NCBI RefSeq assembly: GCF_009914755.1
Contig: NC_060927.1
Direction: 5' to 3' (one strand)
DNA length: 64,000 nucleotides
Source: the human T2T-CHM13v2.0 reference genome, Homo sapiens
Positions 15,190 through 34,113 of this stretch are shown here, in pieces (positions within the stretch are counted from its first letter, which is position 1; the number at the start of each line of letters is the position of its first letter). The notes under the pieces were generated by a model. It had not been told where the DNA came from and did no database searches. It was given only the letters and a program-made list of their open reading frames with translations. Both the position numbers and the translations under genes were made by a program.

Positions 15190-15890
15190 GAATTTTTAGC
15201 CTCACTAGTAATCAACAATGCAACAAAGAGCTACTCTTTTTCACCTGTCAAATTAGCAGTGCTTTTTTTTCCGGAGAATACTCAATGCCAGCCAGGAGGC
15301 TGTGAGATGGGTTCCTTCAACACTACCATTAGTAAAATAAATGGGACATCCTTTCTGGAAAGCAATTCAACAATATGTATCAAAAACTGCTTAAATATTA
15401 AAACTTATTAACTCTGCAAATTCATCTAAAAGTTTAAAGGAAATAGTCAGGGATTTAGGCAAATATTTATACTGCTACCATTTATTACGCTGAAGGGAGT
15501 ACACCATGTGCCAAGCACTTAATACATAAATTATCTCCCACACCAACAAAGATGTCCACAAAAGCATTGTTTTTAATAGTAAAAAATCATAAACAAGCTA
15601 CATTTACAAAAATAGAGAATGCTAACACAACTTAGAATTAGTCCATAGAACATAATACTACACATTAGAAACTAGGTCTTTAAAGAATGTTAAATGCCAT
15701 GGGGAAAGTGCTTTTATATACAACATAATTCTAACTTATGAAAGATATATAACAAATATACATGCATTAAAATAAAGAGAAATAAATAAAAACACTAGTA
15801 GGTAGTATAGGACTTTTTCAATGCTTTCTACATTTTCCTATTTTTCTACGATTGACATACATCCCCTTTCATGATGAAAAAGTTATAAAA
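15190..15890 (+). mobile_element. L1ME ORF2-end/3'UTR fragment
   Basis: Degenerate L1 motifs cacctgtcaaattagca and ctttctggaaagcaatt. Confidence 0.55.
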
Positions 15891-16284
15891 ATGAAAACAC
15901 GCACACACAAATGTGACTTCCCCCTGGGTGTAAGGAACTCCTTTATCTCATTCTCCCTTCAGACAGCTGCCTCCTCATCCAGCCCTGGTGAATCCCTCAC
16001 TTTGTCTGAGTGTTTCATTTTCTCTTTGCGAAATGGGCACAATAATCCTGGCCTCTCTACCGCCTAAGACAGTTGTATGTCACAGTGACCTTCTGCTAAT
16101 AAAACTCCAGGTAAACACTAATTACCGTTGCTACTAACACACTAATGCTTTCTGGGAGTGGTGAGTCACACTAGGCTCTCATAAGGAAGGAATGGTCTCC
16201 GGGGACAGGATTTGACATGAAGACTCCTCTTGCCAGAAGACTTCTGCCTGTATAGATATCCAAGAGAGACTGGAAGGTAGAGTG

Positions 16285-26349: not shown

Positions 26350-26967
26350 CTGGTAACCACCATTCTTCTTTGGTTCTATGAATTTGACTTTTTAAATTCC
26401 ACAATAAAGTGAGATCATGCAATATTTTTGTGTGTGTCTGGCTTATTTCACTTAAGATAACATCCTCTGGGTTTATCCATGTTGGGACAAATGGCAGGAT
26501 TTTCTTCTTTTATGGCTGAATAGTATTCCATTGTGTATATTTACCACATTTTCTTAATGCATTCATCTGTTAACAAACACTTAAGTTGATCCCATATCTT
26601 GGTTATTATGAATAATACTTTCATGAACATGGAAGTCCAGATATGTCTTCAACATGCTAAATTTATTTCCTTTGGATATGTACACTGAAGTGAGATTGCT
26701 AAATCATATGGTAGTTCCATTTTTAATTTTTTGAGAAAACTCCCACTGTTTCTTCATAATGAGTGTATCAATTTTTATTCCCACTAACAGTGTCCAAGGT
26801 CCCCTTTTCTCTACATCCTCACCAGCACTTATCTTTTGTCTTTTTGATAATAATCATCCTAACAGGTGTGAGACGATCTCTCACTGTGGTTTTAATTTGC
26901 ATTTCCCTGATGATGTGTGATGTTGGGCACATTTCATGTACCTGCTAACCACTTGTGTGTCCTTTTT

Positions 26968-27259
26968 TTTTTTTTTTTTGAGACGGAGTCTCGCTGTCGC
27001 CCAGGCTGGAGTGCAGTGGCGCAATCTCGGCTCACTGCAGGCTCCGCCCCCTGGGGTTCACGCCATTCTCCTGCCTCAGCCTCCCGAGTAGCTGGGACTA
27101 CAGGCGCCCGCCACCTCGCCCAGCTAATTTTTTGTATTTTTAGTAGAGACGGGGTTTCACCGTGTTAGCCAGGATGGTCTCGATCTCCTGACCTCGTGAT
27201 CCGCCCGCCTCGGCCTCCCAAAGTGCTGGGATTACAGGCGTGAGCCACCGCGCCCGGCC
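26968..27259 (-). mobile_element. AluY, AluYe5-like
   Basis: CpGs almost all intact; diagnostics gtctcgctgtcgccc (2-bp deletion), gcaggctccgcccc, gccacctcgcc; perfect 15-bp TSD ttgtgtgtccttttt. Confidence 0.93.
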
Positions 27260-28075
27260 TTGTGTGTCCTTTTTGGGAAAATGTCTATTCAGGTCCTTTG
27301 CCCATTTTTTAATCAGGTTGTTTTTGTTTGCTATAGAGTTGTATGAGTCCCTTATATATTTTGGATATTAATCCCTGATGAGATATATGTTTCACAAATA
27401 TTTTCTCTGAATCCCACAGGTTGTCTTTTCATTTTGTTGATTGTTTCCTTTGCTGTGCAGAAGCTTTTCAGTTTGATGTAGTCAGAATTGGGAACTATTA
27501 GAGAAAAGAGACTTAAACATACGACAATTGAATGAAATGAATGAGCCTTGTTTGGATTCTGACTTTAAAAAAAATCCTAAAGAGATATCTTTGAGAGAAC
27601 TAATCTAATATTAAGGAATAATTGTTAACTTTGTTAGGGTGGATAATGGCATGGTGGTTACATTTCTAAAAAGTCCTTATAAATCTCAGATACGCATAAG
27701 GGATGGAATGGCAGGATGTTTGGGATTCAAAGGCAAGGAGTAATGGGAGGCAGTATTATCACTGTTGAGTGGGGTGATGAGTGTCTGAGGTTTCATTATA
27801 CTCTTCTGTCTATATCATGTACATCTGAAAGTTTTCATAAAAAATTTCAAAATATCAACAAATATATGACTATAAATTGTGTGAGGTGCTGAATCAGACA
27901 CCTCTGTTGTGTGACTTCAGCATCTGTCAGGCTTACCTATGCTTGCATCCATAGCTGGGGTGGATAGTTCCATGAAGGTTTTGATCATCCTCATTCCAGA
28001 GTGAGTCACATGTCGCTGATTTGTGGCATTGGATGCTAACTAGGGACTGCCCAGGACCTTGCCACCACCACATAT

Positions 28076-28320: not shown

Positions 28321-30267
28321 CTGCCATGAGGAGCTCACAGTGTAGGGAAGTTAATGCCCAATGGGATAGTAAGCACAAGTGTCTTGTTTTAAAGGTGTAT
28401 AAACTAAGACTCCTTCATCAACTGGTTGATGAAAGAGCTGGACTAGGGCTTCTGCCTTGATGCCTTCTGCAGAACTCAGCAGAGGGCTTTGCTCAAAGTG
28501 GGCCCCCAATGAGGATGTTTTGCATGATTAAGTAAATGCCTGAGCAAAAGCAGAGAGACCATAAAAACACAACACAATTAACAATGGAGAGTTCTAAAAA
28601 TAGGTCTAATGAATAGACATTTCTCAAAAGAAGATATACGAATAGCCAACAAACATGGAAAAAAATGCTTAACATCACTAATCATCAAGGAAATGTAAAT
28701 TGAAACCACAAATCGATACTACCTCACTCCTACAGGAATGGCTATAATTAGAAAGTCAAAAAACAATAGATATTGGCATTAATGTGGTAAAAAGGGAATA
28801 CTTTTACACTGCTGGTAGAAATGTAAATTAGTACAACTTATATGGAAAATAGTATGGGGATTCCTTAAAGAACTGAAAGTAGATCTTCCATTTGATCCAG
28901 CAATCCCACTGCTAGGTATCTACCCAAAGGAAAAGAAGTCATTATATGAGCTATTCCAAACAATTGAAAAGGAGGGACTCCTCCCTAACTCATTTGATGA
29001 GACCAGCATCATCCTGATACCAAAACCTGGCAGAGCTATAACAAAAAAAGAAAACTTCAGGCCAATATCACTGATGAACATCAATGTAAAAATCCTCAGT
29101 AAAATACTGGCAAACGAAATCCAGCAGCACATCAGAAAGCCTATCCACCATGATCAAGTAGGCTTCATCCCTGGAATGCAAGGCTGGTTCAACATACACA
29201 AACCAATGAATGTAATTCATCACATAAACAGAACTAAAGACAAAAACCAAATGATTATCTCAATAGACACAGAAAAGGCCTTCAGTAAAATTCAACACCC
29301 CTTCATGTTAAAAACTCTCAATAAACTAGTATTGAAGGAACATACCTCAAAATAATGAGAGCCATTTATGACAAACCCACAGCCAATATCATACTGAATG
29401 GGCAAAAACCTGGAAGCATTCCCCTTGAACACCAGCAGAAGACAAGGATGCCCTCTCTCACCACTCCTATTGAACATAGTATTGGAAGTTCAGGCCAGGG
29501 CAATCAGGCAAGAGAAAGAAATAAAGCGTACTCAAATAGGAACAGAGGAAGTCAAATTGTCTTTGTTTGCAGATGACATGATCCTATATCTAGAAAACCT
29601 CATTACCTCAGCCCCAAAGCTTCTTAAGCTGATAAGCAACTTCAGCAAAGTCTCAGGATGCAAAATCAATGTGCAAAAATAACAAGCATTCCTATACACC
29701 AACAATAGACAAGCAGCCAAATCATGAATGAACTCCCATTCACAATTGCTACAAAGAGAATAAAATACCTAGGAATACAGCTAACAAGGGAAGTGAAGGA
29801 CCTCTTCAAGGAGAAATAGAAACCATTGCTCAAGAAAATCAGAGAGGACACAAACAATGGAGAAACATTTCATGTTCATGGATAGAAAGAACTAATATCA
29901 TGAAAATGGCCACACTGACCAAAGTAATTTATAGATTCAATGCTATTTTCTTCAAACTACTATTGACATCCATCACAAAATTAGAAAAAAATATTTTATA
30001 ATTCATATGGAACCAAAAAAGAGCCCATATAGCCGAGAAAATCCTAAGCAAAAAGAACAAAGCTGGAGACATCATGCTACCTGACTTCAAACTATACTAC
30101 AAGGCTACAGTAACCAAAACAGCAAGGTACTGCTACAAAAACAGACACCTAGACCAATGGAGCAGAATAAAGAACTCAGAAATAAGACCACACATCTACA
30201 ACCATCTGATCTTTGACAAATCTGACAAAAACAAGCAATGGGGAAAGGATTCCTTATTAATAAATGA

Positions 30268-30369
<102 letters not shown>

Positions 30370-30637
30370 TAACCCAAAACTATAAAAACCCTCAAAGAAA
30401 ACCTAGGCGATACCATTCAAGATATAGACACAGGCAAAGATTTCATGATGAAAACATCAAAAGCAATTGCAACAAAAGCAAAAATTGACAAACGGGATCT
30501 AATTAAACTAAAGAAAGAGCTTCTGCACAGCAAAATAAACTATCATCAGAGTGAATAGACAACCTACAGAACCAGAGAAAATTTTTGTAACCTATCTATC
30601 TGAGAAAGGTCTAATATCCAGAGTCTACAAGGAACTT

Positions 30638-30836
30638 CTATTCTAGTTCTTGCTTGTAAGCATGGGGGAAAGGATTAATGTGGAATTTGGTCTGATATGT
30701 ACTATGGACACTCAAGCAATTATAGTACTATGTAATATTCATGGTGGCTAGCAGTAATGCACGATATACATGGAATTGTCGTAGGGGGGTGGGTCGATAC
30801 TTGGGTAGTACCCAAAATTGCCTCCTCATGAAAATA
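30638..30836 (-). other. Mitochondrial control-region (HVS1/ETAS) fragment within the NUMT
   Basis: Reverse complement contains tttgggtactacccaagtat, cattactgctagccaccatgaatatt and ccccatgcttacaagcaag, near-identical to conserved human HVS1 blocks. Confidence 0.93.
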
Positions 30837-30904
30837 CAGAGAGTAGTTTAAATTAGAATCTTAGCTTTGGGCGCTGATGGTAAAGTCAAGTACTTTTTCT
30901 CTGA
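30837..30904 (+). pseudogene. MT-TP: Nuclear pseudo-copy of mitochondrial tRNA-Pro (TGG)
   Basis: cagagagtagtttaaattagaatcttagctttgggcgctgatggtaaagtcaagtactttttctctga; 68 nt; anticodon TGG at 30868-30870. Confidence 0.93.
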
Positions 30905-30906
30905 GT

Positions 30907-30972
30907 TGCCCTTGGAAGGAGGTCTTCATTTCTGGCTTATAAGGCCGGTGTATTGGTTTATACTACAAGGGC
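30907..30972 (-). pseudogene. MT-TT: Nuclear pseudo-copy of mitochondrial tRNA-Thr, anticodon changed TGT>TAT
   Basis: Reverse complement gcccttgtagtataaaccaatacaccggccttataagccagaaatgaagacctccttccaagggca; 66 nt; acceptor stem GCCCTTG/CAAGGGC. Confidence 0.93.
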
Positions 30973-31051
30973 AGGTTCATTTGAGTATCTTATTTTCGAT
31001 TAAGGAGGCGGTTGGTATGAGGATTAGAATTGTAGTAAAGTATAATACGGA
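30973..31051 (-). pseudogene. MT-CYB: Nuclear fragment of the mitochondrial cytochrome b 3' end
   Basis: Vertebrate mitochondrial code gives [26 protein letters not shown] followed by the incomplete T stop abutting tRNA-Thr. Confidence 0.95.
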
Positions 31052-33728
31052 AACAAATTTACAAGAAAAAAAAACCCCATTAAAAAGAGGGCAAAGGACA
31101 TGAACAGACACATCTCAAAAGACATTTATGTGACCAACAAACATTTGAAAAAAAGCTCAACATCACTGATCATTAGAGAAATGCAAATCAAAACCATAAT
31201 GAGATACCACCTCACACCAGTCAGAAAGGTGATTATTAAAAAGTTATGAAACAACAGATACTGGCGAGGCTACAGAGAGATAGGAATGCTTTCACATTGT
31301 TGGTGGGAATGTAAATTAGTTCAACCATTGTGGAAGATGGGGTGATGATTCATCAAAGACCTAGAACCAGAAATACCATTTGACCCAGCAATCTCATTAC
31401 TGGGCATATACCCAAAGGAATATAAATCAATCTATTATAAAGATACATGCATGTGCATGTTCATTACAGCACTATTCGCAATAGCAGATATATGGAATCA
31501 ACCCAAATGCCCACCAACGTGATAGACGGGATAAAGAAAATGTGGTACATATACACCATGGAATACTAGGCAGCCATGAAAAAAATGAGATCATGTCTTT
31601 TGCAGGGACATGGATGGAACTAGAAGCCATTATCCTCAGCAAACTAATGCAGGAACAGAAAACCAAACTCATAGGTGGGAGTTAAACAATGAGAACACAT
31701 GGACACAGGGAGGGGAACAACACACACTCGGGCCTGTTGGCGGGGGAGTGGGGAAAGGGAGAGCATCAGGAAAAATAGCTAATGCATGCTGGACTTAATA
31801 CTTAGGTGATGGGTGGATAGGTACAGCAAATCACCATGGCACACATTTACCTATGTAACAAACCTGCACTTCCTACACATGTATCCTGCAACTTAAAATA
31901 AAATTATAATTAAAGTTATAAAAGAAGTCATTATGTAAAAAAGACACACGCACACGCATGTGTATAGCAGCACAATTCACATTGCAAAGATATGGAACCA
32001 ACGTAAGTGCACATCAACCAATGAGCAGATAAAGAAAATGTGGTATATATATATACCATGGAATACTACTGAGCTAAAAAATGAGTGAAATAATGTCTTT
32101 TGCAACAACTTGGATGGAGCTGGAGGCCATTATTCTAAGTGAAGTAACTCAGGAATGAAAAACCAAATACCATATGTTCTCACTTATAAATGGGAGCTAA
32201 GCTAAGAGGACACAAAGACATATAGAGTGATACAATGAACTTTGGAGATTCAGGGTTGGGAGAGGTTGCAGGGGAAGGGATAAAAGACTACACACTGGGT
32301 ACAATGTACATTGTTCTAGTGACGGTGCATTAAAATCTCAGAATTCACCACCATAGAATCCATCCATGTAACCAAAACCCACTTGTACCCTAAGAGCTAC
32401 TGACATTTAAAAAAATAAATAAATAAAAATATGTCTAATTTGTTTCCTGTGACTGATTTTGAGATCCCAAAAAAGCATATGAGAAAATATGTAACTATAA
32501 AAGAAGATAGTCCTTCATCCCATAGCAATAAACTTCCACATAAGTGTTAAGATACAAATCTTACTGTCTTATAGCTCTGCCTTCAACATGATGGAACACA
32601 AGTGTCCTGGCACATTGATGTGCATGCAGACAGGTGTATGTGCTCCATATTGTTGCAGATAAAAATAGCTCACAAGCTTGGAAAAACAATCTGCTTTAAT
32701 CCTTGGATTTTGGAAAAACACTTGTAGCCAAGAGCAGAATCTCATTTTTGAAGATAATTGGCATTTCCCCCTCAACCACAAATATTTCAAATATTTAAAT
32801 AAGCTTGATAGCATGCAGAGACAACTCCTCAGGCCCAAGTCCTTGTGACCATGGGAATTCGATCTTTCTCCTTTATCTCTTTCTACCCTCTCAGAGCTTT
32901 CGGGTGCTGTGATAGAATCTGTAGGATTATCAAGATTTAAAAAAAATAAGCTACTTAGCTATCAGGCAAAAAAAAAAGTCATTATGCCTTCTTTTTTGAG
33001 GTAAAGAGCAAGATAGGAAATATTTTTTATTAAAAAACTGGCAAGAGGAAAGCTAGTTGACTGATGAAGTTTCCAACCGTGTGGGTAACCTGTTTAGCTA
33101 GGACCAGATGGTTGAGAGAGCTGATAATGAAATACAATGTCTTCTCTATCTAGGTCAGCACTGAATCCAGCCTAGGTCACAAATAACAGACAGTTGTTTG
33201 GCCAGATGCGTGTTCAGAGGCTGATGGAAATGAAAGGATGTCCTGGAACACGGACATATCTGAATTTGGTTCTAATTTGGCTCCTTTTTTGGCAGCCTTC
33301 GGTTCTGAGTTCTCAGATGGAGTTGTAGTGGAAGAAAAGCTTTCTGTACAGGACAGGTCTATAATTGTGGTTCTGTTCCAAAAGATTATAGCATATCATT
33401 GACTTTCCAGAAATTTGAAGAAAAACATAGTGTCCACCATGAACTAGAATGTAGGGAATCCCCTCAGATACAGTAGACAAGAGTGTAAGTTATTACAACT
33501 TTTCTATAGGTTATTTGACCATATATATCAAAAACTTCTAAAAACTTGCAAAGCATTTGCCTAGTATTCTACTTCTAGGAGTTTATTCTAAGGCAATAAT
33601 CAAGAATGTGCCATAAGATCTTGTTTTTAACAATCATTTAAAAACTAGAGCAGCATATTAATCTTATCGCTCAATAAGAGGGGATTTTTTTAAAAATGGT
33701 GATGCAATGGGATATCTTCAGCCATTAA

Positions 33729-34113
<385 letters not shown>

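What the first reader, a model, noticed from the sequence alone, without database searches (positions are those of the whole stretch)
30638..31050. 413-bp CYTB-tRNA-Thr-tRNA-Pro-D-loop NUMT that looks like a fossil of an ancestral primate mtDNA
Seen: the reverse complement gives the CYTB C-terminus ([26 protein letters not shown] in mitochondrial code), tRNA-Thr, tRNA-Pro and about 200 bp of control region in mitochondrial order. Against human mtDNA as I recall it, the 79-nt CYTB piece has about 14 differences, of which about 11 are synonymous (including TGG>TGA Trp) and only two residues change. Inference: most divergence arose under mitochondrial purifying selection, not by neutral nuclear decay, so the insert preserves an ancestral hominoid/catarrhine mtDNA including HVS1. 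It may already be in NUMT catalogues; I cannot check that.
Basis: partly seen in the sequence, partly recalled or inferred. Interest (0 to 1): 0.8.

Follow-up and report, generated by a model that had tools for sequence, protein, structure and literature searches.

The report
Catalogued mitochondrial DNA insert in L1
This is a genuine 413-base piece of ancient mitochondrial DNA pasted cleanly into an old L1 repeat on human chromosome 3, but it is already listed and dated in published catalogues, so it is an ordinary example of a well-known kind.

Summary
Window 30638-31050 (minus strand) is a 413-bp NUMT holding the last 26 CYTB codons, tRNA-Thr, tRNA-Pro and 199 bp of control region in mitochondrial order. 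It sits inside an L1 ORF2 with no target base lost or duplicated.

It is already catalogued. Tsuji et al. 2012 list it as hg18 chr3:43245822-43246227, mt 15810-16213. Torres-Gonzalez et al. 2026 list it as CHM13 chr3:43244645-43245051, 406 bp, 79.6% identical to chrM.

Tsuji's age class is "d": inserted after the orangutan split and before the gorilla split.

My tree of 18 human NUMT copies of this mtDNA segment agrees in relative terms. This copy is one of the two youngest rungs, younger than copies scored as shared with orangutans.

The "fossil" idea holds and is textbook:
- It keeps Ala where human CYTB has Ile.
- Both tRNAs still fold.
- Compensatory stem changes mark mitochondrial-era evolution.
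- A mutated tRNA-Thr anticodon marks nuclear decay.

Low interest; already known.

The parts
30638..31050 (-). Whole NUMT, 413 bp, corresponding to human mtDNA about 15810-16213 as published
   Evidence: Boundaries come from L1 empty-site paralogs.
30973..31050 (-). CYTB 3' end: 26 codons plus the T of the incomplete stop. The first T of the first codon (31051) is also the L1 base, giving a 1-nt overlap at the junction
   Evidence: Translation under code 2. Matches human cytochrome b residues 355-379 in PDB, 24 of 25 identical.
30907..30972 (-). tRNA-Thr pseudogene. The cloverleaf is intact but the anticodon is TAT instead of TGT (G to A at 30940)
   Evidence: Rfam RF00005 39.7 bits; ARAGORN mt mode; single-sequence fold -18.5 kcal/mol with a 7-bp acceptor stem.
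30837..30904 (+). tRNA-Pro (opposite strand, as in mtDNA), anticodon TGG
   Evidence: Rfam RF00005 34.1 bits; ARAGORN mt mode.
30638..30836 (-). 5' part of the control region (199 bp), including the conserved structure A at 30729-30836
   Evidence: Rfam RF01853 91.5 bits, E 8.8e-15. Aligns with the control-region parts of other NUMTs.
28819..30637 (+). Host L1, ORF2 part upstream of the insert in L1 sense (RT domain and beyond)
   Evidence: Pfam RVT_1 E 2.5e-18 and 1.1e-12. Window 30002-30286 matches human L1 ORF2p residues 847-932, E 1.8e-39.
31051..31685 (+). Host L1 continuing after the insert (ORF2 C-terminal part). Its 3' limit was not determined here
   Evidence: Colinear with 10 of 11 L1 paralogs across the junction. 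Open frame 31485-31685; I recognised it as the ORF2 C-terminus from memory only, and Pfam gave no hit.

Best explanation
This is a fixed, non-functional nuclear copy of mitochondrial DNA (NUMT). A roughly 413-bp fragment of mtDNA spanning the CYTB end, tRNA-Thr, tRNA-Pro and the start of the control region was captured at a double-strand break inside an already resident, already dead L1 ORF2. It was ligated by end joining with at most 1 nt of overlap, no target-site duplication and no deletion. According to published dating this happened in the common ancestor of human, chimpanzee, bonobo and gorilla after the orangutan lineage split off. Since then the copy has drifted at the slow nuclear rate while the real mtDNA went on evolving fast, so the copy is a partial snapshot of stem-hominine mtDNA. 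Shown here: mitochondrial identity, gene order, exact boundaries, clean junctions, L1 host, relative age among human NUMTs, and signs of both mitochondrial-era and nuclear-era substitutions. Taken from the literature: presence in Pan and Gorilla, absence in orangutan, and 79.6% identity to chrM. Inferred: the end-joining mechanism and the absence of any function.
For: Identity and order. Boundaries and clean insertion: 10 of 11 L1 paralogs are uninterrupted exactly between the bases matching 30637 and 31051, and an older L1 copy in the window shows the same within 1 base. Host L1 on the plus strand. Independent insertion: the flanks of this copy match no other NUMT locus across the junction; of 30 loci only its own locus matched, plus one 84-bp L1 match in L004. 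Tsuji lists it as 'unique'. Catalogued: Tsuji 2012 supplementary file 2 row 'chr3 43245822 43246227 15810 16213 - d -- unique'; Torres-Gonzalez 2026 Supplemental Data 1 (406 bp, 79.607%) and Data 2 (bonobo 1, chimpanzee 1, human 1, gorilla 1, both orangutans 0), with a 412-bp chimpanzee entry in the syntenic order showing the same pattern. Age class d is defined, and the hand-check of ages b-f described, in Tsuji's main text. Relative age: the ML tree of 18 NUMT copies is a ladder ending in L005 > L004 > L002 > (L003, this copy), with support 100/99 and 100/98. L005 (chr8:36.55 Mb) is scored present in both orangutans. Of all copies, this one's peptide is closest to human CYTB. Mitochondrial-era changes: tRNA-Thr T-stem pair G-C to A-T is shared with L003, and anticodon-stem pair 26:40 goes T-A (L002) > C.A (this copy) > C-G (L003). 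Nuclear-era change: the private anticodon G>A.
Against: The orangutan zeros in the 2026 presence/absence table are not trustworthy on their own. Every listed chr3 NUMT from 12 to 101 Mb has the same 1,1,1,1,0,0 pattern except two scored human-only. One of them (chr3:40.27 Mb) is dated by Tsuji as older than the rhesus split. A 77%-identity chr4 NUMT is scored human-only. The upper age bound therefore rests on Tsuji's class alone. I saw that row without its header; the column meaning is inferred from the main text and from matching neighbouring rows. I could not inspect any ape genome or any mtDNA myself. At 79.6% identity this copy looks old at first sight, and the L1 host (best paralogs 88-89% identical) is old enough to allow a much earlier insertion. 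My tree has only 425 columns and no true mtDNA tip.
Confidence: 0.85

Rival explanations
1. One reading: the insert is much older, from a hominoid or catarrhine ancestor, and preserves mtDNA of that depth.
For: Only 79.6% identity to chrM. The host L1 is old: its best paralogs are 88-89% identical over 638 bp, with 40 scored of 13663 first-look candidates. So the L1 does not forbid an early date. The orangutan zeros in the 2026 table are unreliable.
Against: Tsuji's age class d came from a tree with gibbon, rhesus and squirrel-monkey mtDNAs and was hand-checked in genome alignments. About half of the insert is fast-evolving control region, which lowers identity. In the ladder it is younger than copies scored as shared with orangutans. 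Its CYTB peptide differs from human at 1 of 25 aligned residues, fewer than any other copy.
Confidence: 0.08
2. The donor was not on the direct maternal line to modern human mtDNA. It came from a well-diverged side lineage (deep ancestral polymorphism or hybridisation), as Popadin et al. argue for the hominine-shared NUMT ps5.
For: The private branch of this copy (0.044 per site; 16 substitutions) seems longer than nuclear decay alone would give for its published age; that expectation comes from my recalled rates, not from a call. Several private changes look selected. Both CYTB changes are third-position synonymous. The tRNA-Thr pair 29:37 changed T-A to C-G on both sides, yet the younger L003 still has T-A. 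An acceptor-stem position is paired here but mismatched in L002, L003 and L004. It has the same phyletic pattern as ps5 (passages).
Against: The numbers are tiny (9 private changes in 212 coding and tRNA bases). 'Private' is judged against other NUMTs, not against real mtDNAs. A private stretch of this size is within what ordinary ancestral polymorphism gives (my estimate, not computed). Thirteen transitions to three transversions is not decisive.
Confidence: 0.06
3. It is a secondary copy, made by segmental duplication or carried along with the L1, rather than a primary insertion.
For: None found. There are 34 other places in the genome that match it.
Against: The closest other copies are only 85-89% identical and have unrelated flanks. 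Ten of 11 close L1 paralogs lack the insert. Tsuji marks it 'unique'.
Confidence: 0.01

Closest known systems
Human reference NUMTs as catalogued by Tsuji et al. 2012 (NAR, PMC3467031) and Torres-Gonzalez et al. 2026 (Genome Res, PMC13629686)
   Same: It is one of their entries: hg18 chr3:43245822-43246227, and CHM13 chr3:43244645-43245051 (CHM13_numt155). It fits Tsuji's general findings that NUMTs lie next to or inside retrotransposons that were there first (passages).
   Different: Nothing of substance. Their ends are 7-8 bp short at the control-region end. The L1 empty-site comparison here puts the ends at 30638 and 31050.
ps5, the ~9-kb chromosome 5 NUMT shared by human, chimpanzee and gorilla (Popadin et al. 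2022, PMC9140377; abstract and passages read)
   Same: Same published phyletic pattern (hominines yes, orangutan no).
   Different: ps5 is long enough for a significant synonymous/non-synonymous test and has a long shared stem. This insert has only 78 coding bases, and its orthologues and the mtDNAs could not be compared here.
Numt capture at double-strand breaks by non-homologous end joining (Hazkani-Covo & Covo 2008, PMC2567098; seen only as a search listing and abstract start)
   Same: Junctions without target-site duplication, with 0-1 nt overlap and no loss of target sequence.
   Different: The mechanism is inferred from the scar only; nothing here tests it.

Membership tests
NUMT (nuclear sequence of mitochondrial origin) | Sequence homologous to mtDNA, with genes colinear with the mitochondrial order | tested here: met
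   CYTB end, then tRNA-Thr, tRNA-Pro (opposite strand), then control-region structure A.
NUMT (nuclear sequence of mitochondrial origin) | Embedded in nuclear chromosomal DNA with definable junctions | tested here: met
   Both flanks are one L1 ORF2 that is continuous in 10 of 11 paralogs.
NUMT (nuclear sequence of mitochondrial origin) | Not a working mitochondrial gene set: truncated, unreadable in the nuclear code, or mutated | tested here: met
   Only 26 CYTB codons are present. TGA and ATA need code 2. The tRNA-Thr anticodon is changed to TAT.
NUMT (nuclear sequence of mitochondrial origin) | Similarity to the species' own modern mtDNA at nucleotide level | not testable with these tools
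   chrM is not in the genome held and no mtDNA turned up in the collections. The published value is 79.607% over 406 bp.
Tsuji age class d (inserted after the orangutan split, before the gorilla split) | Present at the orthologous site in gorilla and chimpanzee | not testable with these tools
   Literature only: 1,1,1,1 for bonobo, chimpanzee, human and gorilla, plus a 412-bp chimpanzee entry in syntenic order.
Tsuji age class d (inserted after the orangutan split, before the gorilla split) | Absent at the orthologous site in orangutan and more distant primates | not testable with these tools
   Literature only: Tsuji class d with the stated hand-check. The 2026 table's orangutan zeros are regionally unreliable.
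Tsuji age class d (inserted after the orangutan split, before the gorilla split) | Branches from the human mtDNA line later than NUMTs shared with orangutans | tested here: met
   In the ladder tree this copy and L003 are the last rungs, after L005, which is scored present in orangutans. No true mtDNA tip was included in the tree.
ps5-type NUMT with a long 'mitochondrial' stem (Popadin et al. 2022) | A long pre-insertion stem rich in synonymous or compensatory changes, shared by the human, chimpanzee and gorilla orthologues | tested here: inconclusive
   Private changes number 16. Of the 9 in coding or tRNA sequence, several are synonymous or pair-preserving. No orthologues or mtDNAs were available to split stem from nuclear branch.

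The most novel reading that the evidence does not exclude
The donor mitochondrial genome was not an ancestor of living human mtDNA. It came from a side lineage that had already evolved separately for on the order of a million years or more, under mitochondrial selection, before the fragment entered the nucleus. That would make this a second small witness, besides ps5, ps11 and ps7, for deep maternal structure or hybridisation among stem hominines, and one that carries control-region sequence.
Probability: 0.06. Interest if true: 0.5.

Novelty: already known. Interest (0 to 1): 0.1.

Why it matters
It matters little beyond bookkeeping. The insert can confound PCR or read mapping for the CYTB / HVS1 region, and it is one more dated snapshot of ancestral hominine mtDNA. 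Read as a series, the human NUMT copies of this segment show stepwise compensatory evolution in tRNA-Thr, a small illustration of how NUMT ladders record mitochondrial history. If the private, selection-like changes proved to lie on a long pre-insertion stem, the locus would add a data point to the debate on ancient hybridisation. It is too short to carry that argument alone.

Tried and rejected
- **Modern human or primate mtDNA.** The held genome lacks chrM. Exact-word scans of viral contigs and genome contigs with a conserved tRNA-Pro word gave 0 loci each.
- **ARAGORN in default bacterial mode.** It found no tRNA. Mitochondrial mode did.
- **Supplement of the T2T NUMT paper PMC10671835.** There were 0 occurrences of the coordinate prefixes in the one file held, about 4 million characters and possibly cut. 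This is no evidence that the paper omits the locus.
- **Supplements of Gherman et al. 2007 (PMC1925129).** I made no further supplement look-ups. I therefore never saw the header of Tsuji's table or the age classes of the other NUMT loci (L002, L003), nor the UCSC NumtS / RHNumtS tables.
- **Gunbin et al. 2017 (PMC5491396).** The outline shows it covers only NUMTs of 0-6 Myr, so it is not relevant.
- **The search of earlier findings.** It was not open.
- **get_proteins.** It did not accept PDB identifiers, so the last CYTB residue of the human chain was not compared.
- **Naming the L1 subfamily.** No repeat library is on hand. I report only that the best paralogs are 88-89% identical, and I built no L1 consensus.
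- **First junction script.** It ignored locus orientation and misaligned 6 of 11 paralogs. It was redone with both orientations.
- **Secondary duplication.** I considered this and rejected it.

Full report
**What is there**

Read on the minus strand, window 31051-30638 begins with 26 sense codons that under the vertebrate mitochondrial code give [26 protein letters not shown]. Rfam then finds:
- a tRNA at 30907-30972 (-), 39.7 bits;
- a tRNA on the other strand at 30837-30904 (+), 34.1 bits;
- the control-region family RF01853 at 30729-30836 (-), 91.5 bits against a gathering score of 40, E 8.8e-15.

ARAGORN in mammalian-mitochondrial mode calls the second tRNA Pro (tgg). It calls the first a cloverleaf with anticodon tat; bacterial mode had found nothing. 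The peptide matches the C-terminus of human cytochrome b in solved structures (9cg3_J, 5xte_J; E 6e-9 and 1.4e-8). Of 25 aligned residues 24 are identical, and the one difference is Ala here against Ile in human. This cannot be chance, and the order (CYTB, tRNA-Thr, tRNA-Pro on the opposite strand, control region) is the mitochondrial one.

**Boundaries and host**

The flanks are an L1 in sense on the plus strand:
- Pfam RVT_1 hits at 28819-29355 and 29398-29682.
- Window 30002-30286 equals human ORF2p residues 847-932, E 1.8e-39.

I fetched 11 close L1 paralogs, the best of 40 scored at 88-89% identity over 638 bp. In 10 of the 11, the base matching window 30637 is directly followed by the base matching 31051. 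The 11th has a small deletion of its own there. A first script had ignored orientation. An older L1 fragment at 27230-27420 in the window shows the same within one base.

No target base was lost or duplicated. One base (31051) could belong to either partner. This scar fits capture of an mtDNA fragment at a double-strand break by end joining; that mechanism is an inference from established knowledge and was not tested.

**Is it known?**

Yes.
- Torres-Gonzalez et al. 2026 (PMC13629686; I read the outline, sections 5 and 21, and parts of Supplemental Data 1 and 2) list CHM13 chr3 43244645-43245051, 406 bp, 79.607% identical to chrM. As CHM13_numt155 it is scored bonobo 1, chimpanzee 1, human 1, gorilla 1, and 0 for both orangutans. 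A 412-bp chimpanzee entry in the matching order has the same pattern.
- Tsuji et al. 2012 (PMC3467031; supplement passages and main-text passages) have the row 'chr3 43245822 43246227 15810 16213 - d -- unique'. I did not see the table header. That this row is the same locus follows from the equal length and from neighbouring rows that match the CHM13 list in order and length.

The main text defines age d as after the orangutan split and before the gorilla split. It says all 120 NUMTs of ages b-f were checked by hand in genome alignments: 108 behaved exactly as predicted, and none was best explained by a dating error.

**A caveat against my own reading**

The orangutan zeros in the 2026 table are not independent support.
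- Every listed chr3 NUMT between 12 and 101 Mb has the same 1,1,1,1,0,0 pattern except two scored human-only.
- One of them (chr3:40.27 Mb) is age 'a' in Tsuji, meaning older than the rhesus split.
- A chr4 NUMT only 77% identical to chrM is scored human-only.

The method used BLAT of 500-bp flanks, and here both flanks are L1. The upper age bound therefore rests on Tsuji's class.

**My own relative dating**

The genome held is CHM13 without chrM, so I used the other human NUMT copies of this segment as a time series. A genome search gave 35 matches including this copy itself. For the tree I used this copy plus 17 of the 30 fetched loci. I left out L008/L023 (split hits) and L013, L017, L020 and L024-L030 (hits under about 200 bp).

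The ML tree (18 rows, 425 columns, GTR+F+G4) is a ladder: an old cluster, then L006/L007, then L005, L004, L002 (chr17:23.21 Mb), and last the pair L003 (chr5:95.05 Mb) plus this copy. Support is 100/99 and 100/98 for the last two forks and 85/77 for the L004 fork. This copy has a short end branch (0.044) and L003 a longer one (0.118).

Raw differences are as follows:

| Comparison with this copy | Differences |
|---|---|
| L003 | 42/325 |
| L002 | 61/411 |
| L004 | 89/407 |

L005 (chr8:36.55 Mb) is scored present in both orangutans and L012 in all six apes. L003 is scored present in human and gorilla. This copy is therefore younger than copies shared with orangutans and about as old as, or older than, one shared with gorilla. 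That fits class d. There is no true mtDNA tip in this tree, so it orders the copies but does not date them.

**Fossil quality**

Three observations support the ladder order and show that differences between rungs arose in working mitochondria.
- Where human CYTB has Ile, this copy and the older L002 and L004 have Ala (GCC), as does bovine CYTB. L003 has Thr (ACC), one step from each.
- In tRNA-Thr, T-stem pair 47:59 is A-T in this copy and L003 but G-C in all 9 older copies shown. That is a change on both sides which keeps the pair.
- Anticodon-stem pair 26:40 reads T-A in L002, C.A in this copy and C-G in L003.

I judged a change private to this copy when it differed from L003 and L002 where those agree, or from L002 and L004 beyond the end of L003. 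By that rule I count 16 private substitutions:

| Region | Private substitutions |
|---|---|
| CYTB | 2, both third-position and synonymous |
| tRNA-Thr | 5 |
| tRNA-Pro | 2 |
| Control region | 7 |

Thirteen are transitions and three transversions. Four further 'gap' rows in that output are only the overhang of the other sequences. Among the tRNA-Thr changes, one destroys the anticodon (TGT to TAT at 30940), which is plainly nuclear decay. Two others turn pair 29:37 from T-A into C-G, a compensated change that the younger L003 does not carry.

This is the pattern Popadin et al. 2022 use for ps5 (PMC9140377, abstract and passages). With 9 private changes in 212 coding and tRNA bases, and no orthologues or mtDNAs, I cannot separate it from ordinary ancestral polymorphism.

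The low identity (79.6%) reflects that about half of the insert is fast-evolving control region. The host L1 is old (paralogs 88-89% identical), so it does not exclude an early date. Tsuji's dating, the ladder position and the near-human peptide all point to a stem-hominine insertion rather than a hominoid or catarrhine one.

**Verdict**

This is a real, precisely delimited, already catalogued and already dated NUMT with no sign of function, in an intergenic L1. It is ordinary for its kind. What remains open is a direct nucleotide comparison with ape mitogenomes and orthologous sites, which these tools could not give. Supplements I could not see may hold further dates: Gherman 2007, the rest of Tsuji's tables, and the RHNumtS/UCSC tables.

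Noticed in passing
window 30940 (minus strand, tRNA-Thr anticodon): The middle anticodon base is A instead of G, so ARAGORN labels the gene Met (tat). All other NUMT copies with a call at this position have tgt, or tct in one. This is a clear post-insertion mutation.
   Followed up: yes
PMC13629686 Supplemental Data 2, rows for chr1, chr3 12-101 Mb and chr4 46-81 Mb: The presence/absence calls come in long regional runs: all human-only, or all lacking orangutans. They include NUMTs of 77-80% identity and one that Tsuji 2012 dates before the rhesus split. This suggests a method artefact rather than biology.
   Followed up: partly
loci L002-L021 with window 30907-30972: Read in tree order, the human NUMT copies of tRNA-Thr show stepwise compensatory stem evolution: pair 47:59 G-C to A-T, and pair 26:40 T-A, C.A, C-G.
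   Followed up: partly
window 26840-27468 (+): A second, more diverged L1 ORF2 fragment (74-84% identical to the host L1 flanks) lies about 3 kb from the NUMT.
   Followed up: no
window 33830-33977: Sub-threshold Rfam hits to Metazoa_SRP, mir-3135 and mir-1268 overlap one another. This looks like an Alu element rather than any RNA gene.
   Followed up: no
L003 = G000:C5:95051476-95054939: The closest relative of this insert is a 3463-bp chr5 NUMT, 87.3% identical to chrM and scored present in human and gorilla but not Pan. I did not establish whether it relates to the published ps5.
   Followed up: no
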